A DNA stretch of 64,000 nt from Patescibacteria group bacterium (GTDB lineage Bacteria > Patescibacteriota > WWE3 > UBA101185 > UBA10185): assembly GCA_018825365.1 (NCBI GenBank), contig JAHJEV010000003.1, forward strand, positions 108,670 through 172,669, in the 5' to 3' direction. A program made the translations under genes and the position numbers. The stretch's first letter is position 1, and each line of letters starts with the position of its first letter. The notes under the pieces are model-generated. The model was not told the origin of the DNA, did not search any database, and saw only the letters and a program-made list of their open reading frames with translations. Positions 12,406 through 34,875 of the stretch are shown piece after piece.

Positions 12406-12496
12406 TATACTTTTATGTTAAACTATCTTTGTTTTTCCTCGTGTGGTATGGCTCAATACACGATGAGGTGGGAGAGATTAAGAAGGGTGGGTGCTT

Positions 12497-12572
12497 AGCG
12501 GGGTAGCCTAGTTAGGTTCAAGGCGTCTCAGTTTAAATGAGAAAATCTCAGGTTCAAATCCTGACCCCGCTA
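12497..12572 (+). tRNA. class I tRNA with anticodon UUA (ochre-suppressor-like); A1-U72, A73, no encoded CCA
   Basis: Hand-folded, every stem Watson-Crick: acceptor agcgggg/ccccgct, D gcct/aggc, anticodon stem tctca/tgaga with loop GTTTAAA (positions 34-36 = TTA), 5-nt variable loop, T arm tcagg-TTCAAAT-cctga. It is followed by ttagc, not CCA. Confidence 0.7.
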
Positions 12573-12602
12573 TTAGCTTATTTATTTAAACCAATCTTTT
12601 AA

Positions 12603-18780: not shown

Positions 18781-18920
18781 ATAATTAAAAGACTGAAAGG
18801 ATGATAGCACAAAAAAACTACCGGAGAATGTGCTTGTTCTGCGGCCCTGGAAATAGTATGAGATAAGATCCCATTTAGTACTTTACTAATTTGTGTCCTT
18901 GCCATATTCTTAAACGCGTT

Positions 18921-18990
18921 TAACATGCTCATTTTTCCCCTGATAACCCGACTACCATTATTAAAATCCCGAGCATTAAAAAACCACGTT
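18921..18990 (-). repeat. diverged duplicate of the pyrH 3' end (gene fragment; att-like direct repeat of 24879..24965)
   Basis: Minus-strand translation WFFNARDFNNGSRVIRGK matches VVVFDVRDFNNVSRVIKGEK at the real pyrH C-terminus. There is a 16-nt identical core cattattaaaatcccg, and some differences are synonymous, indicating a homologous gene fragment. Confidence 0.6.
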
Positions 18991-19003: not shown

Positions 19004-19291
19004 TTAGTGCTTAGGGGTTTCCAAGCTCAATTTCTTGAGTAGTTCAAGAGTAACTCTGACTGATGGGTTTTCGTCATTTATAAAATGAACTCGATTGCCA
19101 AATCGGTCGATCAGCTGAGTAACGAATTCATCCGCCCAGGAGGGTGTAAAAGTGATTACACCTTCAAAATCAAGTTCCAACATTTCAGTTTCAAGTACGC
19201 CCTGCAATAGTGGCGCTATTGCGGCTAACGCCTCACGCCCGTCTTGTCTTGATGTAAGAATGTTTCCGAATTTTTTAAGTTCTATTTTCAT
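19004..19291 (-). CDS. DUF4325/STAS-like (anti-sigma-factor-antagonist-like) small protein
   Basis: 95 aa with a STAS-like alpha/beta pattern (…LELDFEGVITFTPSWADEF…). It lies 8 nt downstream of, and is apparently co-transcribed with, the GHKL ATPase gene. Confidence 0.5.
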   Translation of the reverse strand: MKIELKKFGNILTSRQDGREALAAIAPLLQGVLETEMLELDFEGVITFTPSWADEFVTQLIDRFGNRVHFINDENPSVRVTLELLKKLSLETPKH

Positions 19292-19298
19292 ATTTTAC

Positions 19299-20030
19299 TT
19301 AAAACCTTATTAATGCTAAACAGCCACTGTAATATAGATCAGTTTTACTTATCTTCAACTCTTTAACCTCATTAGTAATAGAAACTTTAGCGTTCCCACT
19401 GTAAAAGTCGAGTTCAATGGCCCTATTTAATACTACTTCCAGCACGAATTTAAGTCCATTCCCTCTTGCTTCAGGAGATCTGCCTGATATCACTTCAGTA
19501 AATGCAATGCGCAAAGCGTCCTCATCGTTTTTAATATCAATCACTCTTTTTAGAGTTCTTAAAATACCCTGTCCCCTGTCCGCCAGGGCTATCTGTCTTT
19601 TGTTTGTATCATACGAAAAGAGTATACCTGGGATGTCTGGCCAATTTCCTAGATTATGGTCAAAGGAGTTATTTCCTATTTCTCCTACTATGGCAACAAT
19701 AAGCGGATAATACTCTTTTAGATCTGGTAGCTTTTCCAGAGCACTTTGCAGCTTTGAAAGTCTTCCTTTAAACTCTGCGCTGGTTGGACAGTAAAATGCA
19801 CTTTCTGGTTCTTTGGGGGTAGCCAACATCCACTCCATGGCTGTTGCAAAAATATTTTGTTTGTATATCTCAAGATCCAGTTGCACATAGTATCTGTGAC
19901 CGCCTTCAGTTCTTTTAGCCGGAAATTTACCGCTCCTGTCCCATCTTCTAAGGGTGGTGGTGGTTACATCTAAATATTCCGCGGCTTCGCCTATACTTAG
20001 TCTTTTAGTGTTTTCCATATACTTATACAA
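19299..20030 (-). CDS. fusion of MerR/excisionase-type HTH and GHKL (histidine-kinase-like, RsbW/SpoIIAB-type) ATPase
   Basis: N-terminal HTH (LSIGEAAEYLDVTTTTLRRWDRSGKFPAKRTEGGHRYY). The C-terminal GHKL Bergerat fold has an N-box (GEIGNNSFDHN), a G1 box (DRGQGI) and a G2 box (GNGLKFV). Confidence 0.6.
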   Translation of the reverse strand: MYKYMENTKRLSIGEAAEYLDVTTTTLRRWDRSGKFPAKRTEGGHRYYVQLDLEIYKQNIFATAMEWMLATPKEPESAFYCPTSAEFKGRLSKLQSALEKLPDLKEYYPLIVAIVGEIGNNSFDHNLGNWPDIPGILFSYDTNKRQIALADRGQGILRTLKRVIDIKNDEDALRIAFTEVISGRSPEARGNGLKFVLEVVLNRAIELDFYSGNAKVSITNEVKELKISKTDLYYSGCLALIRF

Positions 20031-20258
20031 CTTTTATATCATATTTCCTAAACTTGTACAACTTGTGTGTAAACTTATACATTCGGTAACACCCATCAAG
20101 CCACAACAACAAAAATCGAGGTTCAGATTTAAAAATATCAAAGGAAGCCTTAACAAGCGGCTACAGGGGGTTTGAGGCTTTGTAGCCGCATAAATGTCCT
20201 GTCTGACTGACTGCATGGGAATTTGTGGGAACTTCTTACAACACTGATTTAAAAATAC

Positions 20259-20708
20259 TTAGGAAAGCTTATTAACTAGAACGACTAGTGCGGTTCTGGA
20301 TTCTATAACAAGATCATATTTTAAGGCTTCCTTTACTCTGAGCCATTTGAAGTCGCTATGCTCAGATGATATAGCTACTTCTCCACCAACACTTTTTGAT
20401 AAACCCACGAGAATAACGTATGGTAGACCTTTATATTTCCCAGAAGAAATAATTTCGCTACGCCAGTAAGCTATTTTATCTGTCGGAATTACAACTAAAC
20501 CTGTTTCCTCAAGCACCTCTCTTTCTAATGCGTTAGAAATATCTTGCCCTATATCTAGCTTTCCTCCAGGTAGCTCCCATTTGTTAGGCATGTATGAGTC
20601 GCTAGGAGAACGCTTTATTATCAAAATAAGACCATCTTCGTTTTGAACAATCGCTCGAATTACAAGTACTACTTTCGGTCGTTTTTGTCTATCGGATTTA
20701 ATGTTCAT
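20259..20708 (-). CDS. Nudix hydrolase
   Basis: Nudix box GGKLDIGQDISNALEREVLEETGL (Gx5Ex7REuxEExGu). Confidence 0.8.
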   Translation of the reverse strand: MNIKSDRQKRPKVVLVIRAIVQNEDGLILIIKRSPSDSYMPNKWELPGGKLDIGQDISNALEREVLEETGLVVIPTDKIAYWRSEIISSGKYKGLPYVILVGLSKSVGGEVAISSEHSDFKWLRVKEALKYDLVIESRTALVVLVNKLS

Positions 20709-20771: not shown

Positions 20772-20812
20772 TGGCTGGCTAGGTGGGAAGTTGTTGGAAC
20801 TTTTAAGTTAGA
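20772..20812 (+). repeat. intergenic repeat family member R1 (tggctggct...gggaa...ggaact)
   Basis: Shares tggctggct-N-gggaa-N-(t)tcgaact/ttggaact with R2 (21714) and R3 (24731). Confidence 0.4.
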
Positions 20813-20823
20813 TCCTTCAGGTG

Positions 20824-21639
20824 TTAATCGAATTTTATAAAGTAAGCAGTTTTTTCCTTATAGAAGCCAAATTTTTGGGTTGTTTCTGCTATGTATTTGT
20901 AAGTATCGGATGTAAATGGGCTGTCTTTTAATTTTTTAATAAATTCCTGGTTTTGTAAAAGCTGAATAAACCCATCAGTGTATACACAGACTAAGTCACC
21001 TTTTTTAAGTTCTACCTCTCCGGTTTGAAGATATTGTTCAAATCCCTCTCTACCGTCTATCACTCCATATCCATATTCTTTACCATCCACAATAACTTGA
21101 TGGTTTCTAATATCTTTTCTCCAGTGTTTCCTTGTTTCGATCTTTCCCCAATCAAAGTTTCCATCTAGATATTTAGCAGATTGTTCAACATAAGACTTAA
21201 GCATTGGGTGATCCACCAAGTCATTACCAAAGACGGATATAAAGCAATCATCCAAAACACCATATATTAACCTGTTTTCCTTAATCCATATTGTTGAGGT
21301 AGTAGCAGCTCCAATAGTAAAGCCATTATTTTCTTTATTCTTATAGAGAGGGCTTTTACAATTAAACTTTGCAACCTCTTTATTAGCTTCTAAATAGGCT
21401 TGTTTGATTGAGTCGGTCGAGAAATTCTTACTCTCGAGGTTATGTACAACTTGATTACATATAATTCTAGCTACCTCATATGAGTCAGAGGGTACGGGGT
21501 AAAGTGTTGGATCCGTTGGGTCGTGTGTTACCCCATCTGCAACTACAAAAATGTTCTCTTTATTTGAATGTAAATAGCAGTCTTCTTGAGGTGCATATGG
21601 GTGTTTTAAATTATTTTCATGGTACAGAATAAACTTCAT
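20824..21639 (-). CDS. hypothetical protein, possibly a PP2C/SpoIIE-like phosphatase fold
   Basis: Weak PP2C-like motifs (...QEDCY..., FVVADGVTHD, VCVYTDGFIQLL). 271 aa. Low confidence. Confidence 0.35.
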   Translation of the reverse strand: MKFILYHENNLKHPYAPQEDCYLHSNKENIFVVADGVTHDPTDPTLYPVPSDSYEVARIICNQVVHNLESKNFSTDSIKQAYLEANKEVAKFNCKSPLYKNKENNGFTIGAATTSTIWIKENRLIYGVLDDCFISVFGNDLVDHPMLKSYVEQSAKYLDGNFDWGKIETRKHWRKDIRNHQVIVDGKEYGYGVIDGREGFEQYLQTGEVELKKGDLVCVYTDGFIQLLQNQEFIKKLKDSPFTSDTYKYIAETTQKFGFYKEKTAYFIKFD

Positions 21640-21713
21640 GTATTTATTTTATCACCAGAGGTTGTATTTTATCGTAGGGTGATGATTTATATTGCTATGA
21701 CAACAAAAACCTT

Positions 21714-21800
21714 GGCTGGCCGTAAGGGAACAAGCTCGAACTGTGGTTTTGGTCTAAATCCTGGCTTTTAATCCAGTGGTAGGGGCCTAATAATCCTGTT
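21714..21800 (+). repeat. intergenic repeat family member R2
   Basis: ttggctggccgtaagggaacaagctcgaactgtggttttggt...taataatcctg aligns with R3 over the 5' 40 nt and the 3' aataatcctg block. Confidence 0.45.
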
Positions 21801-21913
21801 TGAAACCTTCACAAACTGACAATGTGCCTATAAACCGATTCTGATAGAAGACAGGATGCTACAAGTAAAGAACATTCGATGCTTACATACTTCCACTATG
21901 CTAAAATTTAGCT

Positions 21914-22969
21914 ATGGGCAGACTAGAAATAGGTAGCAGGTGGAAGTTTGAGATAGTCGCGTTTCTGATAACTGGTCTTTTATTGTATAAGGTTGATTTT
22001 AGTATAGACACTGATTCTTATTTCTATTTTAAAAAGCATGATATATATTACGACTATCAAGCAGCCAAACAATTGCAACACGGAGAAAACCCATACAATA
22101 GAATATTAGAAGGTAACATGATTGAAAATGATAAATACGCTACTCAGCTGCCTCTTTATTTTTATTTTCTTGCCCTAATAGGGAAAATTTCTCAAAATAA
22201 CTTTGACGTGTTTTTGGAAAACTTTAGACTCGTTTTATTTTGGTTCCATTTAGCGGGGGGCGTTTTTATGTATCTCCTTTTTCGCCGTATCAATAAACTT
22301 TTTGTAGGATATTGTGCTGCAGTTTTTTATATGTTTAATGTATGGAGTTTAAATAGTTTTATGTATCTTAAACAAGATATGATAGCCATAGCCTTACTTG
22401 TTTTATCTTTTTACTTCTTCAGAAATAAAACTTATCGCTGGATCTCATACGTATTATTTGGGCTATCGCTTGGAATAAAACATATAGGAATTTTTGCTTT
22501 TCCAATATATCTTACACCAATTCTTTTTAAAGAAGATTCTTTTAAGCGCTTTGGTCTCAATATGTTACTGTTGTTCTCTACGATACTTATACCAGCAGCT
22601 CCTCTTTTAATTGATAATTCGTTAAGTTTTGTAAATTCCATGCTGTTTAGTCTTACGCGGAGTCCTCGCAGCTCTGAAATAATTTATGGGTACAACGAGT
22701 TGCTTGTAAAATACAACCCCTCTTTTAATAAAGGCACTTTATTTCAGCAGTTACTCCCAAGGCTGCCCCTTTTTATTGCCTCTATCCTGTGCTTACTAAT
22801 GCTCTTACTAAGAAAGATACCTTTATCTGTGTATCTTTTTATTTCAATACTGGTATTTGCTATATTTAACCCTGTAATTTTCCCTCAATATATAACATGG
22901 GTTACCCCAATGGCCCTTATTTCTCTAGTTGATTACACAGACCACGTTCAACTACAAAAACGTGTTTAA
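21914..22969 (+). CDS. polytopic integral membrane protein (possible GT-C/DUF2029-like glycosyltransferase)
   Basis: 351 aa with 9 or more hydrophobic helices. No soluble domain. Confidence 0.45.
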   Translation: MGRLEIGSRWKFEIVAFLITGLLLYKVDFSIDTDSYFYFKKHDIYYDYQAAKQLQHGENPYNRILEGNMIENDKYATQLPLYFYFLALIGKISQNNFDVFLENFRLVLFWFHLAGGVFMYLLFRRINKLFVGYCAAVFYMFNVWSLNSFMYLKQDMIAIALLVLSFYFFRNKTYRWISYVLFGLSLGIKHIGIFAFPIYLTPILFKEDSFKRFGLNMLLLFSTILIPAAPLLIDNSLSFVNSMLFSLTRSPRSSEIIYGYNELLVKYNPSFNKGTLFQQLLPRLPLFIASILCLLMLLLRKIPLSVYLFISILVFAIFNPVIFPQYITWVTPMALISLVDYTDHVQLQKRV

Positions 22970-23162
22970 ACAAATGTCTCCCCCAGCCCAAGATCCTAAA
23001 AGCCTGAACTAAAAAGATTTTCAGATTTATACTACAACCCTTTTATAGTAGTAGAAATTTAAATAATCCTCGCCGCATAATTATTGTAATATTGTATTTC
23101 TTGACAAACCACTATAAAAGGGTGCTATTATTTTGTAGCACAGAAAAGATACTTTTACTTAA

Positions 23163-23849
23163 ATGTTTAAAAATACGGGAAATACAAGTAGTAAAAAGAC
23201 AAGGGAGATTAGCTTAAAAACTGTTTTTACGTATATTTTCGGTGCTTTATTCTTGATCTTCTTCCTCTTTTCTGGAGTCGTAACAATTAAAGCGGGACAG
23301 TTGGTTATTGGTGTTCTTTATTTTATTTTAGCTGTCCTAGTCCTTGTACCTCACCACCACTTGAGAGTTACCAAAACTTTAAAATTTGTAATTTTTGTCG
23401 TGCTTTTCTTCGTACTCGCCTACTTTAGCGGTCGTAGCACTCCCCCTGTTGCGCAAAAGTATGAATATTTTGCATTAGGGGAAATATTTAACATTGCATT
23501 TGGAAATAACACATTTTCAATGGTAGTTAGAGAAGCGAAACATGATGCTAAAATTAGTATCTCTGGAAAAGAAGTAACTACATCTGGTTACTTTATTATT
23601 GTTACAGGAGATATCGTAAATCTTGGCTCGGAAGCTGTAGATTTTAAATTTAGCGTAACCCCTGAATTAAAGGATAAACAAGATAGACGTTATACCTTAT
23701 ATGGAACAGGTCTAGCTGTAGGAAAATTGCAACCCGGTGTGGCTAAAGAAGTTTCCTATGTTTTTGAAATTCCTAAAGATGCAACGGGATTAGAATTTAT
23801 TGTTAGTGATAAAACCGATGTTGCTAAATCGGTAGATTTAAAAAGATAA
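23163..23849 (+). CDS. membrane-anchored protein with a C-terminal beta-sandwich (DUF4352-like) domain
   Basis: Two N-terminal TM helices, then the pattern FIIVTGDIVNLGSEAVDF...YVFEIPKDATGLEFIV, which is typical of DUF4352-type domains. Confidence 0.4.
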   Translation: MFKNTGNTSSKKTREISLKTVFTYIFGALFLIFFLFSGVVTIKAGQLVIGVLYFILAVLVLVPHHHLRVTKTLKFVIFVVLFFVLAYFSGRSTPPVAQKYEYFALGEIFNIAFGNNTFSMVVREAKHDAKISISGKEVTTSGYFIIVTGDIVNLGSEAVDFKFSVTPELKDKQDRRYTLYGTGLAVGKLQPGVAKEVSYVFEIPKDATGLEFIVSDKTDVAKSVDLKR

Positions 23850-23852
23850 TTA

Positions 23853-23888
23853 CGGTGAGGTTTTTTAAATTTTACCTCACCGTTTTTA
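23853..23888. terminator. bidirectional intrinsic terminator between convergent genes
   Basis: cggtgaggt-tttttaaatttt-acctcaccg has a perfect 9-bp stem flanked by T/A runs on both sides. Confidence 0.6.
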
Positions 23889-23904
23889 AGTAAACAAGTA
23901 AAGA

Positions 23905-24579
23905 CTACGTTCCAAACTGTCTGTCACCCGCGTCTCCCAGCCCAGGCAAAATGTAGCCTTTTGGATATTTACTTTGTCCATCGCTTAGCTTTCTGTCAAC
24001 CGTGGCGACAACAATACGAACATCTGGATGAGTATCCGATAGAGCTTTTATTCCCTCGGGCGCTGCTATCACCCCCAGATATACTATCCTCTTAGCTCCC
24101 CTTTCTTTTAAACGAGAAATGGTGGCGATTGCCGAGCCTCCTGTTGCAAGCATAGGATCAGGTACTAACCAAACGAAATTTTCACACTCCATAGGAATTT
24201 TACTACGTCCCCATACAGGCTGAAGAGTTTCCTCATCTCTGTACATGTCAATATGGAAAATCTTGGCTTCGGGAAGGATTTCTTGTATGGGAGCTACCAT
24301 TCCCAGAGCTGCCCGGAGTATTGTTGCTACCGCAACTTCTTCTGTGAAAACATACCCTACTGTCTCTTCTAGAGGTGTAGACACTTGTGTAGATTTTACT
24401 TTTAGATCAGAAAGAGCGGCATACACCAAGGGGTACGTTAATCGCCCAAGAATTGTACGAAACTGCTCTGATTTAGTATGCACATCCCTCAGTTCCGTCA
24501 GCCAAACCTTAATCAGTGCGTTTGAGTCCAACACAATCAAGCTTGAACATTCCATGATACTATCTCCTTTTTTTAGCAA
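23905..24579 (-). CDS. upp: uracil phosphoribosyltransferase
   Basis: PRPP-binding motif VWLVPDPMLATGGSA and a UPRTase C-terminal GYILPGLGDAGDR motif. The real start is probably the internal Met (MECSS...). Confidence 0.85.
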   Translation of the reverse strand: MLKKGDSIMECSSLIVLDSNALIKVWLTELRDVHTKSEQFRTILGRLTYPLVYAALSDLKVKSTQVSTPLEETVGYVFTEEVAVATILRAALGMVAPIQEILPEAKIFHIDMYRDEETLQPVWGRSKIPMECENFVWLVPDPMLATGGSAIATISRLKERGAKRIVYLGVIAAPEGIKALSDTHPDVRIVVATVDRKLSDGQSKYPKGYILPGLGDAGDRQFGT

Positions 24580-24730
24580 GATGCTTTTTTGAACAGACCA
24601 ACATTGATTCTAAGTATTTATTAGAAAGTGTCAATGATATTTAATATTATTAAAAATTAATGGAAGTATACTTCAGTCTAGTTCACTATTGGATTAGTTG
24701 ATTTTATGCTGTTGTGACAATGTAAATCCT

Positions 24731-24862
24731 ATGGCTGGCTATTAGGGAACAAGTTCGAACTGTTTGTAGCTGTTAAAGGAAAATTCGACGATTTCAGGTT
24801 CATGACGTAACATTGCACTCTAGAAGGTTTTGGTACTTATAACTAGCTGCAAAATAATCCTG
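24731..24862 (+). repeat. intergenic repeat family member R3
   Basis: atggctggctattagggaacaagttcgaactgt...ggttttggt...aaaataatcctg contains the perfect 10-nt palindrome agttcgaact. Confidence 0.45.
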
Positions 24863-24878
24863 GAGAGAATAATATTAT

Positions 24879-25592
24879 TTATGGTGTGATTAGTGTACCT
24901 ACTTTTTCTCCTTTAATCACACGACTAACATTATTAAAATCCCGTACGTCAAAAACAACAACCGGAATATGCTGGGATTGACAAAGAGCAAAGGCCGTAT
25001 TGTCCATCACCATCAAACCTCTAACCAATGCTTCCTGAAACGTAAGTTGCGGAAACTTTTTAGCATTTGTGTTTGTCTTCGGATCACTATCATAAACCCC
25101 ATCCACATTAGTTCCTTTCAAGAGAATATCAGCATTTATTTCTGCTGCTTTTAGTGCGGCTGCAGAGTCGGTGGTGAAAAAAGGGCTGCCGGTACCACCC
25201 GCCAGTATTAAAACGTAGCCTTTTTCTAAATGATGCACAGCTCGCAAACGAATAAAAGGTTCGCAAGCCTGATCCAGCCTTAAAGATGACATCACCCGTG
25301 AGGTAACTCCTAGGACGTTTAATTCCTGTTGTAATGCCAAGGCGTTCATAATCGTCCCCAGCATACCAATGTAATCCAACTGCGCCGGATCAGCTGTTCC
25401 CTTCTGATGATCCCGTCCCCTAAAGAGATTACCACCACCGTTGACTATCGCCAGCTGAATACCAGCTTCATCGATAAGCTTCTTTACGCCAAGTGCAATT
25501 AATCCTATTGCTTTGAAATCCAAACCCACCTTTTTTTCTCCTCCAAACACCTCTCCGCTTAGTTTTAACAGGACACGCTTGTATTCTGACAT
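24879..25592 (-). CDS. pyrH: UMP kinase
   Basis: N-terminus RVLLKLSGEVFGG and the amino-acid-kinase family fold. 237 aa. Confidence 0.9.
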   Translation of the reverse strand: MSEYKRVLLKLSGEVFGGEKKVGLDFKAIGLIALGVKKLIDEAGIQLAIVNGGGNLFRGRDHQKGTADPAQLDYIGMLGTIMNALALQQELNVLGVTSRVMSSLRLDQACEPFIRLRAVHHLEKGYVLILAGGTGSPFFTTDSAAALKAAEINADILLKGTNVDGVYDSDPKTNTNAKKFPQLTFQEALVRGLMVMDNTAFALCQSQHIPVVVFDVRDFNNVSRVIKGEKVGTLITP

Positions 25593-34801: not shown

Positions 34802-34875
34802 TGGCTGGGGGACAGGGATTCGAACCCCAATAGCTGGGACCAAAACCCAGAGTCCTACCGTTAGACGATCCCCCA
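34802..34875 (-). tRNA. tRNA-Gln (anticodon TTG)
   Basis: U1-A72 acceptor tggggga/tccccca, anticodon stem ctggg/cccag with loop TTTTGGT, G73 and CCA encoded. Confidence 0.85.

What the first reader, a model, noticed from the sequence alone, without database searches (positions are those of the whole stretch)
20772..24862. Family of intergenic repeats (R1-R3) confined to the candidate island, each upstream of a minus-strand gene
Three copies share tggctggc(t/c)-N3-(a/t)gggaa-(caag/gttg)-(t/c)t(c/g)gaact. R2 and R3 share a further ggttttggt block and end with aataatcctg. R3 carries an extra roughly 50-nt insertion and contains the perfect palindrome agttcgaact. They sit 60-150 nt upstream of the Nudix, PP2C-like and upp genes. 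A fourth aataatcct occurs upstream of 23163. R2 contains tRNA-like motifs (ggtctaaatcc, agtggtagg). They could be a regulator binding site family, MITE-like elements or small RNA genes.
Basis: seen in the sequence. Interest (0 to 1): 0.5.

Follow-up and report, generated by a model that had tools for sequence, protein, structure and literature searches.

The report
tRNA-end-like junction repeats between gene cassettes
The repeats are real 30-base junction sequences that end like a glutamine tRNA gene and separate small, strain-variable gene cassettes in an uncultured ultra-small (CPR) bacterium, so they most likely mark where a site-specific recombination system stacked the cassettes, rather than being small RNA genes.

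Summary
The repeat family is real. The window holds four copies, not three: R0 20204-20233, R1 20772-20801, R2 21713-21742 and R3 24732-24761. All are co-oriented, and there are none elsewhere in the 64 kb. On the minus (gene-sense) strand the 30-nt core is AGTTC[C/G]A.C...TTCCC-N5-[G/C]CCAGCCA. No copy is a tRNA or an Rfam family, and none folds better than shuffles.

Related metagenome contigs carry about 14 more copies. These form arrays that begin at a tRNA-Gln gene, with one copy between each pair of single genes. The core ends in CCAGCCA, exactly like tRNA-Gln. The 20 nt after tRNA-Gln, which include a consensus promoter, also follow several cores.

Strains 99.7% identical to the window over 12.8 kb lose homology exactly at the last base of R2's CCAGCCA, and they lack the PP2C and Nudix cassettes. 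A parallel family in a WWE3 contig mimics a tRNA-Ser 3' end.

Best reading (confidence about 0.6): these are att-type junctions of a tRNA-anchored, integron-like cassette array. No recombinase was found. Closest precedents are the tandem islands bounded by tRNA or tmRNA 3'-end repeats in Dehalococcoides and Prochlorococcus. I rate it a new variant of a known kind.

The parts
20204..20233 (-). R0. The most degenerate core copy (gene-sense AGTTCCCACAAATTCCCATGCAGTCAGTCA). It lies between the Nudix stop (20259) and the HTH-GHKL gene start (20018) and is followed by the flank GACAGGACATTTA.
   Evidence: the repeat finder family D1; nhmmer E=4.5e-7. The flank ACAGGACATTTA is shared with the terminal copy of the L012 array.
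20772..20801 (-). R1 core (AGTTCCAACAACTTCCCACCTAGCCAGCCA), lying between the PP2C-like stop (20824) and the Nudix start (20708).
   Evidence: Exact pattern match; nhmmer E=2.5e-8.
21713..21800 (-). R2. The core is 21713-21742 (AGTTCGAGCTTGTTCCCTTACGGCCAGCCA) and a long-form extension runs to CAGGATTATT at 21798. Position 21713 is the last base of CCAGCCA and is a strain-level homology breakpoint.
   Evidence: L070, L071, L075 and L078 are 99.7-99.8% identical to the window down to base 21713 and unrelated beyond it.
24732..24862 (-). R3. The core is 24732-24761 (AGTTCGAACTTGTTCCCTAATAGCCAGCCA) and a long-form extension begins 17 nt after the pyrH stop. It lies upstream of the upp promoter.
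   Evidence: The long form is homologous to the copy in L001.
20259..20708 (-). Nudix hydrolase cassette, bounded by R1 and R0. It is absent from the sister strains L070, L071, L075 and L078.
   Evidence: Pfam NUDIX 8.9e-18; absence.
20824..21639 (-). PP2C-like phosphatase cassette, bounded by R2 and R1. It is absent from the sister strains. Elsewhere in WWE3 genomes it sits behind a tRNA-Arg and a copy of that tRNA's 3' end.
   Evidence: Pfam PP2C_2.
21914..23849 (+). Membrane protein (21914-22969) and DUF4352 protein (23163-23849), antisense to the repeats, lying between upp and R2. The membrane gene recurs next to R copies in L031 and L024.
23905..24555 (-). upp (uracil phosphoribosyltransferase), with its own 11/12-match sigma-70-type promoter at 24634-24607, downstream of R3.
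   Evidence: Pfam UPRTase 6.5e-58; promoter scan. The gene is interrupted by an IS256-family element in strain L075.
19004..20018 (-). HTH (MerR/BldC/excisionase-type)-GHKL ATPase gene (19299-20018) and a DUF4325 STAS-like gene (19004-19291), downstream of R0. The left end of the strain-variable segment lies inside the HTH gene at about 19785.
18905..18990 (-). Remnant of a pyrH 3' end beside tRNA-Tyr. With the intact pyrH 3' end at about 24880-24975, it brackets the ~6-kb variable segment as an imperfect direct repeat.
   Evidence: the repeat finder D6, 78% identity; blast to L001 pyrH, 86%; alignment.
34802..34875 (-). The window's own tRNA-Gln(UUG), ending ...TCCCCCAGCCA. It is an unoccupied counterpart of the site that anchors the arrays in L012, L030 and L031.
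   Evidence: ARAGORN and Rfam; sequence; 3'-end table.

Best explanation
R0-R3 are att-type junction sequences of a cassette array. Read on the minus strand, each 30-nt core has two parts. The left part is conserved and cassette-borne (AGTTC[C/G]AAC..TTCCC plus a variable 5-mer). The right part is the heptamer CCAGCCA, which is also the 3' end of tRNA-Gln (acceptor A72, discriminator G, CCA).

Proposed mechanism:
1. Small circular or incoming cassettes, each made of a promoter, one gene and often a terminator, recombine through their own copy of the site. The partner is the 3' end of tRNA-Gln or an existing junction, and the crossover is in or next to CCAGCCA.
2. Each insertion pushes older cassettes outward. 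The result is the order tRNA, cassette, R, cassette, R, and so on, ending with R and then chromosome.
3. The sequence left of CCAGCCA belongs to the upstream cassette. The flank to the right, with its promoter, belongs to the downstream cassette.

The window holds such an array: upp with two antisense genes, then PP2C, then Nudix, then the HTH-GHKL/STAS genes. Here it is detached from tRNA-Gln and nested in a ~6-kb segment bracketed by pyrH 3'-end repeats.

What is shown: the family, its array architecture, the exact coincidence of the core's end with the tRNA's end, the free re-assortment of left halves and right flanks, and a strain-level breakpoint at that base. What is inferred: the recombination chemistry and the enzyme, which would be a trans-acting tyrosine or serine recombinase and was not found.
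For: 1. Family and confinement. There are four co-oriented copies in the window and none elsewhere in it. About 18 distinct genuine copies are known overall.

2. Array architecture.
- L012 has tRNA-Gln at 1271-1344, followed by six co-oriented junction copies (1801, 2415, 3038, 3646, 4360, 5628). One lies between each pair of co-oriented single genes, and the last abuts a convergent core gene.
- L031 and L030 show the same layout behind tRNA-Gln.

3. Junction identity. In alignment A5 the block CCAGCCA-N-GAACCTGTAGTGTTTGAC is invariant after two tRNA-Gln genes and four R copies. After it come unrelated 17-nt spacers and then TA[T/C]AAT. The promoter scan gives 12/12 matches at L012 1359, 1846 and 3086 and at L031 679, and 11/12 at L031 237.

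4. Independent assortment at CCAGCCA. The same left half occurs with different right flanks: L012_1801, L012_2415 and L030_1131 share a left half. The same flank class occurs with different left halves and different genes. For example, the class-2 flank precedes PP2C, pyrH and two unrelated genes.

5. Strain polymorphism. Four independent assemblies (L070, L071, L075, L078) are 99.7-99.8% identical to the window up to base 21713. That base is the last A of R2's CCAGCCA. Beyond it they are unrelated and lack PP2C and Nudix.

6. Terminators lie upstream of R in L012, L030 and L031, so R sits between transcription units.

7. A parallel family exists in L041. It has the same 29-nt layout (GTTCCAA-N5-TCC...), but its 3' part is identical to the 13 terminal nt of the adjacent tRNA-Ser(cga). 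It again lies between co-oriented single genes.

8. Precedent. In Dehalococcoides ssrA islands a conserved 15-bp element motif sits directly upstream of each 20-bp ssrA direct repeat (PMC3146451). In Prochlorococcus islands partial tRNA copies separate the elements (bioRxiv 10.1101/2020.12.28.424599).
Against: - No integrase or recombinase was found among the about 59 ORFs of the window or in any array locus.
- Exact identity with tRNA-Gln is only 7-8 nt. The rest of the resemblance needs either a 5-nt insertion or a 10-nt deletion, so it is ambiguous. The profile scores the tRNA-Gln 3' end at only E=5.
- The window's array is not next to tRNA-Gln, and the window's own tRNA-Gln has no array.
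- Only one junction (R2) is documented as a strain breakpoint. The other end of that variable segment lies inside a gene at about 19785. Mismatches also cluster within 272 nt to the right of R2. The variant was therefore probably delivered by homologous recombination, and the R2 boundary reflects an older insertion.
- No circular intermediates or empty sites were observed.
- Two genes in the window's array are antisense to the repeats.
Confidence: 0.6

Rival explanations
1. R is a cis-regulatory DNA site. It would be an activator, repressor or UP-like site with 10-bp-phased direct repeats (AGTTCC-N4-AGTTCC), lying just upstream of the promoters of a regulon of accessory genes. A BldC/Xis/MerR-type HTH protein, such as the HTH-GHKL protein encoded next to R0, might bind it.
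For: - Most copies lie 60-180 nt upstream of a co-oriented gene.
- In class-1 copies the core ends 13 nt before a perfect -35 box.
- The core contains phased direct repeats.
- The neighbouring protein has a BldC/excisionase-type HTH, which is a class of domain that binds direct repeats.
- That HTH segment and R0 are both divergent between strains.
Against: - Terminal copies sit between convergent genes with nothing to regulate: L012_5628, L030_1131 and L011.
- The same promoter works behind a tRNA-Gln gene with no R left half.
- The distance to the start codon or promoter is not fixed in the window. The upp promoter lies about 100 nt beyond R3.
- A regulatory role does not explain the exact coincidence of the core's end with the tRNA's end, nor the strain breakpoint at that base.
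- The HTH-GHKL gene is not seen near the arrays in L012, L030, L031 or L041.
Confidence: 0.15
2. R copies are inert relics. They would be decayed fragments of tRNA-Gln 3' ends (old attR scars or duplicated tRNA-plus-promoter modules). They would now spread or persist only by homologous recombination and duplication, with no dedicated recombination system acting on them.
For: - R resembles the tRNA-Gln 3' end, and the tRNA-downstream promoter flank is shared.
- Copies far from the tRNA are more degenerate: L031 632, then 1474, then 2713, and the window's R0.
- The strain variant seems to have arrived by homologous recombination.
- No recombinase was found.
Against: - Independent decay would not preserve one 30-nt architecture, with the same length difference from the tRNA, across at least six genomes.
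- Identical 30-mers occur in unrelated surroundings: L012 1802-1831 equals L030 1133-1162 at 100%.
- Left halves and right flanks re-assort precisely at CCAGCCA.
- An equivalent family is retargeted to tRNA-Ser.
Confidence: 0.15
3. R2 and R3, and perhaps all copies, are small RNA genes or tRNA-like RNA elements. Examples would be processing signals or 3'-terminal tRNA mimics.
For: - The core ends in ...GCCA, as a tRNA does, and contains a T-loop-like GTTCGAA.
- The R2 long form is 77 nt, and the GGTTTTGGT block equals the tRNA-Gln anticodon loop.
- In other WWE3 contigs, segments that end in tRNA 3' copies are strongly structured, with z down to -4.6.
Against: - ARAGORN and Rfam find nothing, even at E up to 10.
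- MFE z-scores for all four copies on both strands lie between -1.0 and +1.7.
- Candidate hairpins are in different registers in different copies, so there is no covariation.
- Terminators precede the core and promoters follow it.
- The structured hairpin motif CGAACGAAGTGAG of the other contigs is absent from the window.
Confidence: 0.04
4. R copies are MITE- or REP-like miniature mobile repeats that insert on their own into intergenic DNA.
For: They are short, intergenic, multi-copy, clade-restricted and associated with a variable region.
Against: - There are no terminal inverted repeats or palindromic structure.
- All copies in an array are co-oriented, with one per gene junction.
- None occurs elsewhere in the 64 kb.
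- No transposase is associated with them.
Confidence: 0.04

Closest known systems
Tandem ssrA (tmRNA)-specific genomic islands of Dehalococcoides, including integrase-less 'cis-mobilizable' units (PMC3146451)
   Same: - Arrays of units lie downstream of a tRNA-like gene.
- Each unit is bounded by a direct repeat of that gene's 3' end.
- A conserved element-derived motif sits directly upstream of each repeat and does not align with the RNA gene.
- The contents are strain-variable accessory genes.
- Some units lack an integration module.
   Different: - There the repeat is 20 bp of exact ssrA sequence; here only 7-8 nt are identical.
- There the islands are 10-30 kb; here the cassettes are 0.5-1.2 kb with a single gene.
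- There many islands carry a CcrB-like serine integrase module; here no recombinase was seen in any locus.
- The window's array is detached from its tRNA.
Tycheposon-seeded genomic islands of Prochlorococcus (bioRxiv 10.1101/2020.12.28.424599; later in Cell)
   Same: - tRNA genes act as seeds for islands.
[quoted passage not shown]
- The host has a streamlined genome with few classical mobile elements.
   Different: - Tycheposons carry tyrosine recombinases and replication genes.
- Their attachment sites are about 40-nt partial tRNAs.
- Here the units are single genes with their own promoter, the tRNA-derived part is minimal, and no hallmark genes were found.
Integron cassette arrays (attI/attC, IntI)
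   Same: - Arrays are co-oriented with one gene per unit and a recombination-site-like repeat between every two genes.
- A fixed primary site sits at the head of the array.
- Each junction is a composite of the end of one cassette and the start of the next.
- The content is accessory and strain-variable.
   Different: - There is no inverted-repeat or hairpin attC structure, and no RYYYAAC/GTTRRRY core sites.
- There is no intI next to the array.
- The cassettes carry their own promoters and terminators.
- The primary site is a tRNA 3' end.
CIME / accretion-mobilisation elements of Firmicutes (reviewed in PMC5704250)
   Same: DNA segments that are flanked by att sites, lack an integrase, and are kept in tandem at the 3' end of a conserved gene.
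   Different: CIMEs are derived from ICEs or IMEs, are kilobases to tens of kilobases long, and have long exact att repeats. No ICE or IME partner is seen here.

Membership tests
attL/attR direct repeats of tRNA-targeting integrative elements | The repeat is a copy of the 3' part of a tRNA gene. | tested here: inconclusive
   Only CCAGCCA (7-8 nt) is identical to tRNA-Gln. The longer resemblance (GTTCGAA..TCCCTA..) needs an indel, and the profile scores the tRNA end at E=5. In the parallel L041 family, 13 nt are identical to tRNA-Ser.
attL/attR direct repeats of tRNA-targeting integrative elements | An intact target tRNA gene sits at one end of the array, co-oriented with the repeats. | tested here: met
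   Met in L012, L030 and L031. Not met in the window itself, where the array lies between pyrH and a pyrH remnant next to tRNA-Tyr.
attL/attR direct repeats of tRNA-targeting integrative elements | An integrase gene lies inside the element, next to an att site. | tested here: not met
   There is no Phage_integrase, Resolvase or Recombinase domain in the window's ORFs or in the array loci.
attL/attR direct repeats of tRNA-targeting integrative elements | Presence/absence polymorphism with a breakpoint at the repeat. | tested here: met
   Homology between the window and L070, L071, L075 and L078 ends at base 21713, the last base of R2's CCAGCCA. PP2C and Nudix are absent from those strains.
Integron attC sites | An imperfect palindrome (R''-L''/L'-R') that folds as a hairpin, with RYYYAAC and GTTRRRY core sites. 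| tested here: not met
   No inverted repeat was found. Fold z-scores run from -1.0 to +1.7 on both strands. The core sequence lacks both consensus heptamers.
Integron attC sites | An adjacent intI gene with attI and a Pc promoter, and promoterless cassettes. | tested here: not met
   No integrase was found. The cassettes have their own consensus promoters.
tRNA / tRNA-like or other Rfam small RNA | A match to a covariance model or to ARAGORN, or a stable conserved fold. | tested here: not met
MITE / REP-type miniature repeats | Terminal inverted repeats or palindromic units, target-site duplication and dispersed insertion. | tested here: not met
   There are no TIRs. The copies are co-oriented, one per gene junction, and confined to one 4.6-kb stretch.
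Transcription-factor operator / UP-type promoter element | A fixed position relative to a promoter, and a downstream regulated gene at every copy. | tested here: inconclusive
   The 13-nt distance to the -35 box is fixed in class-1 copies. Other classes differ, and at least three copies have no downstream co-oriented gene. Binding cannot be tested with these tools.

The most novel reading that the evidence does not exclude
CPR/Patescibacteria of the WWE3-like group may possess a previously undescribed, integron-like gene-capture system. Its proposed features are:
- Single-gene cassettes carry their own promoter and terminator.
- Each cassette ends in a conserved ~23-nt right end (AAAGTTCCAAC..TTCCC-N5).
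- Cassettes are inserted by an unidentified trans-acting recombinase at the extreme 3' end (...CCA) of a tRNA gene.
- The cassette-borne site has been retargeted to different tRNAs in different lineages (Gln in this clade, Ser in L041).

The window would hold a translocated array of this kind.
Probability: 0.3. Interest if true: 0.75.

Novelty: new variant of a known kind. Interest (0 to 1): 0.58.

Why it matters
CPR bacteria have tiny genomes and very few recognised mobile elements, so how they gain and lose accessory genes is poorly understood. These junction repeats give a concrete, searchable signature: a 30-nt profile plus anchoring on a tRNA 3' end. That signature marks hot spots where single genes are swapped between strains, including nucleotide-pool, signalling, toxin, membrane and modification functions.

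If a dedicated recombinase exists, this would be a compact gene-capture system analogous to integrons or tycheposons, in a major uncultured radiation. It would be testable by read-level searches for circles and empty sites, and by co-occurrence profiling.

Even on the conservative reading, in which the repeats are old att scars, they delimit cassette boundaries precisely. They also explain assembly breaks and strain heterogeneity at this locus.

Tried and rejected
- **tRNA, tmRNA or pseudo-tRNA.** ARAGORN and Rfam found nothing at gathering threshold or at E up to 10. Manual T-arm and acceptor pairing fails.
- **Structured RNA.** Folds of all four copies on both strands are no better than shuffles.
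- **Sigma-54 or ECF-type promoter reading of TGGC..GGAAC on the plus strand.** Rejected, because three of four copies would fire antisense into coding DNA and the -12 element is missing (reasoning).
- **Island att repeats of tRNA-Tyr or another window tRNA.** No tail duplicates of any of the 13 tRNAs were found.
- **Genome-wide copies.** The genome-contig scan gave only one true homologue, L001. Most metagenome hits were high-GC chance matches.
- **Phage or plasmid attP.** Two viral-contig scans gave no homologue.
- **PD-(D/E)XK (Cas4-like) nuclease as the array enzyme.** It lies divergent from the array head in L012 and L028. However, the two proteins are not detectably related, and none is present in the window.
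- **Recombinase in the window.** None was found among about 59 ORFs.
- **R copies flanking PP2C homologues in more distant WWE3 genomes.** None was found. This search did uncover the parallel tRNA-Ser family and the tRNA 3'-end duplications.
- **Literature on CPR integrons or cassettes.** Nothing specific was found.

Full report
**1. Observation**

TGGCTGGCYNNNWGGGAA matches without mismatch at 20772, 21713 and 24732. Shuffles give a mean of 0.27 matches at up to two mismatches, and none of 100 shuffles reached the observed five.

The repeat finder adds a fourth, degenerate copy at 20192-20236. I call it R0; it has TGACTGAC in place of TGGCTGGC. An nhmmer profile built from 15 copies recovers only these four sites in the 64 kb, with E-values from 2e-9 to 4.5e-7. 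All four are in the same orientation.

- AATAATCCT(G) is at chance frequency. The copy at 23062 is therefore not a family member.
- R2, R3 and a homologue in another genome all carry AATAATCCT at the far end of a 'long form'.
- GGTTTTGGT is enriched, 5 copies against 1.05 expected.

**2. Anatomy in the window**

The informative strand is the minus strand, which is the sense strand of the flanking genes. On it the 30-nt core reads AGTTC[C/G]A[A/G/C]C[A/T][A/T]NTTCCC-N5-[G/C]CCAGCCA. There are two sub-types:
- AGTTCCAACAAGTTCCC, a 10-bp-phased direct repeat of AGTTCC.
- AGTTCGAACTTGTTCCC, which contains the palindrome AGTTCGAACT.

The gene order on the minus strand is as follows (Pfam):
- hisS, then pyrH, then R3
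- upp, followed by DUF4352 and a membrane protein (both antisense), then R2
- a PP2C-like gene, then R1
- Nudix, then R0
- a MerR/BldC/excisionase-type HTH fused to a GHKL ATPase, then a DUF4325 STAS-like gene
- an ~85-nt remnant of a pyrH 3' end, then tRNA-Tyr

The remnant (about 18905-18990) and the intact pyrH 3' end bracket the ~6-kb segment as imperfect direct repeats.

**3. Not an RNA gene**

ARAGORN finds 13 tRNAs in the window, but none at R0-R3. Rfam finds nothing there, either at gathering thresholds or at E up to 10. Minimum-free-energy z-scores for all four copies on both strands lie between -1.0 and +1.7. The short hairpins one can draw are in different registers in different copies.

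**4. Relatives**

The identical PP2C protein is deposited as a hypothetical protein of a 'Patescibacteria group bacterium'. Its homologues are mostly from candidate division WWE3. The organism is therefore a CPR bacterium.

- A scan of species-representative genomes gave one true homologue. It lies in the divergent spacer upstream of pyrH in a MAG labelled Saccharibacteria, locus L001.
- The metagenome scan gave 37 loci. Most are high-GC chance hits. Eight low-GC contigs are homologous: L006, L011, L012, L024, L028, L030 and L031 in addition to L001.
- With the profile there are about 18 distinct genuine copies overall.

**5. Array architecture and the tRNA link**

In L012 a tRNA-Gln gene (1271-1344) is followed by six co-oriented copies, at 1801, 2415, 3038, 3646, 4360 and 5628. 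One copy lies between each pair of co-oriented single genes, and the last copy abuts a convergent phosphomannomutase gene. L031 and L030 show the same layout behind tRNA-Gln.

The cassette genes are unrelated accessory genes. They include PIN/Abi, GNAT, AbiEii, a methyltransferase, an ATP-grasp protein, DUF218 and many proteins with no family. Between arrays only the tRNA, the junctions and a few genes are shared.

The key alignment is A5. The block CCAGCCA-N-GAACCTGTAGTGTTTGAC is invariant after two tRNA-Gln genes and after four R copies. After it come unrelated 17-nt spacers and then TA[T/C]AAT.

The promoter scan scores these sites 12/12 at L012 1359, 1846 and 3086 and at L031 679, and 11/12 at L031 237. 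Strong hairpin-plus-T-run terminators lie just upstream of several cores.

So the core sits between transcription units. Its 3' boundary is equivalent to the 3' end of tRNA-Gln (…A72-G73-CCA).

Left halves and right flanks re-assort at CCAGCCA:
- An identical 30-mer occurs in L012 and L030 with unrelated surroundings.
- The 'class-2' flank (AGGTTTTTGTTGTCATAGCAAT) follows different left halves and precedes PP2C (window R2), pyrH (L001) and two unrelated genes in L012.
- A 'class-3' flank (ACAGGACATTTA) follows the terminal copy in L012 and the window's R0. It is about 65% similar to the native flank of the window's own unoccupied tRNA-Gln (my reading).

**6. Strain comparison**

Look-ups of the window's own proteins returned assemblies with the window's structure (L065-L069, L072-L074). 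They also returned four independent assemblies with a different structure: L070 (a NCBI MAG), L071, L075 and L078.

The second group is 99.7-99.8% identical to the window over up to 12.8 kb, but only down to base 21713. That base is the last A of R2's CCAGCCA. Beyond it these strains have, in order:
- about 125 nt of unrelated DNA;
- an R0-like copy;
- a divergent 5' part of the HTH-GHKL gene.

PP2C, R1 and Nudix are absent from them. On the other side, identity returns to 100% at about 19785, inside the HTH-GHKL gene.

Five of the few mismatches cluster within 272 nt to the right of R2. This suggests that the variant segment was exchanged by homologous recombination in the flanks. Non-homology nevertheless begins exactly at the core's end. 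That is the position predicted from the tRNA-Gln alignment, so it is independent support for CCAGCCA as a cassette boundary.

**7. A parallel family**

The R profile finds nothing around PP2C homologues in more distant WWE3 contigs. L041, however, has an analogous system.

Its tRNA-Ser(cga) ends …ACTCCCTCCGCCA. Downstream, between co-oriented single genes (Nudix, His_Phos_1, an 88-aa protein and NADAR), there are repeats such as AAAAAGTTCCAAGTACGTCCAACTCCCTCCGCCA. These share the 29-nt layout and the left end AAAGTTCCAA with the window's family, but their 3' part copies tRNA-Ser instead of tRNA-Gln. The right flanks again fall into re-assorting classes.

This is what one expects if related cassette-borne sites have been retargeted to different tRNAs.

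**8. Mechanism**

*Shown:*
- a discrete 30-nt junction unit;
- one unit per gene junction in co-oriented arrays headed by tRNA-Gln;
- equivalence of the unit's 3' end with the tRNA's 3' end;
- re-assortment at that point;
- a strain-level breakpoint at that base;
- cassettes with their own promoters and terminators.

*Inferred:* cassettes enter by site-specific recombination between their own site and the tRNA 3' end or an existing junction, with the crossover in or next to CCAGCCA. The left half of the core would then be the right end of the upstream cassette. The flank with its promoter would be the left end of the downstream cassette. The terminal copy would be followed by the original chromosomal flank.

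*Not shown:* the enzyme. No recombinase domain occurs in about 59 window ORFs or in the array loci. No phage-borne copy of the site was found.

*Unexplained:* the window's array is not next to tRNA-Gln. It is nested between pyrH and a pyrH remnant, so it was probably moved there as a block.

I put this explanation at about 0.6.

**9. Rivals**

- **Regulatory site (0.15).** It fits the position upstream of promoters, the phased direct repeats, and the neighbouring BldC/Xis-type HTH protein. It does not explain copies between convergent genes, the tRNA substituting for the core, or the breakpoint.
- **Inert relics of tRNA-Gln ends (0.15).** This fits the lack of a recombinase and the greater decay of distal copies. 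It does not fit the conserved architecture, the identical 30-mers in unrelated contexts, or the tRNA-Ser counterpart.
- **Small RNA (0.04) and MITE/REP (0.04).** Both fail their defining tests.

**10. Comparison with known systems**

The closest precedents are tandem islands bounded by copies of a tRNA or tmRNA 3' end.
- In Dehalococcoides, 20-bp ssrA repeats bound tandem islands. Each repeat is preceded by a conserved 15-bp element-derived motif that does not align with ssrA, and some units lack integration genes (PMC3146451).

The present case works like these and, in array logic, like an integron. It differs in four respects:
- the minimal tRNA-identical segment (7-8 nt);
- single-gene, self-expressed cassettes of 0.5-1.2 kb;
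- the absence of any linked recombinase;
- its occurrence in CPR bacteria.

It fails the defining tests for attC sites, so it is not an integron. I file it as a new variant of a known kind.

**11. Limits**

- All relatives are metagenomic contigs.
- Only one junction is documented as a strain breakpoint.
- The derivation of the core's left half from a tRNA is ambiguous. It needs either a 5-nt insertion after the T-loop or a 10-nt deletion.

Noticed in passing
window 12496-12573 (+): A tRNA-like gene (Rfam tRNA, 65.5 bits) whose anticodon loop GTTTAAA gives anticodon UUA. ARAGORN calls it 'tRNA-Stop', because it would read the UAA stop codon. It has no encoded CCA and lies just after trpS. It could be a suppressor or recoding tRNA, or a mis-registered tRNA.
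   Followed up: partly
window 18905-18990, compared with 24880-24975: An ~85-nt remnant of a pyrH 3' end sits beside tRNA-Tyr. It is 78% identical to the window's pyrH and 86% identical to the L001 pyrH. The ~6-kb variable segment is therefore bracketed by imperfect direct repeats of the pyrH 3' end, as if a block had integrated into, or recombined at, the end of pyrH.
   Followed up: partly
window 19004-20018 (-), with PP2C at 20824-21639: A MerR/BldC/excisionase-type HTH is fused to a domain with GHKL-ATPase (SpoIIAB-like) motifs. It is followed by a DUF4325 STAS-like protein and lies near a PP2C phosphatase, which looks like a partner-switching set with a DNA-binding kinase. The HTH-coding part (about 19785-20082) is only 60-80% identical between strains that are 100% identical in the rest of the gene.
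   Followed up: partly
L075 10656-11828 (corresponds to window ~24445-24455, inside upp): In one sister strain an IS256-family transposase (Pfam Transposase_mut) element of about 1.17 kb interrupts upp, with about 11 nt of window sequence duplicated at the insertion. upp is therefore dispensable in that population.
   Followed up: no
L041 9939-10086, 12904-13051, 13978-14114; L045 15070-15283, 17219-17396, 19753-19902; L048 3037-3179; L053 5383-5529: In WWE3-like contigs many tRNA genes are followed 137-214 nt downstream by a copy of their own last 13-30 nt. The intervening segments are strongly structured (z from -2.4 to -4.6). Each has a terminator hairpin and then hairpins with variable stems and a conserved loop CGAACGAAGTGAG. 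There is no Rfam match, and the motif is absent from the window. The tRNA-Arg case is conserved upstream of PP2C in three genomes.
   Followed up: partly
window 21745-21753 and 24826-24834 (+), compared with 34839-34847 (-): The GGTTTTGGT block in the long forms of R2 and R3 is the same 9-mer as the anticodon stem-loop of the window's tRNA-Gln. However, it is in inverted orientation relative to the tRNA-3'-like core. This is unexplained; it may be a further tRNA-derived fragment of the site.
   Followed up: no
L006 (Ga0180009_10003928), start of contig = window 24690: A contig 99.5% identical to the window begins 42 nt before the R3 core. Several other assemblies also break inside or next to the variable segment (L070 and L076 inside the HTH gene, L079 inside tRNA-Tyr). 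This is consistent with population heterogeneity at this locus.
   Followed up: no
L012 173-1168 (-) and L028 2731-3120 (+): A PD-(D/E)XK (Cas4/RecB-like) nuclease gene lies divergently at the head of two arrays. The two proteins are not detectably similar to each other, and none is present in the window, so the association may be coincidental.
   Followed up: partly
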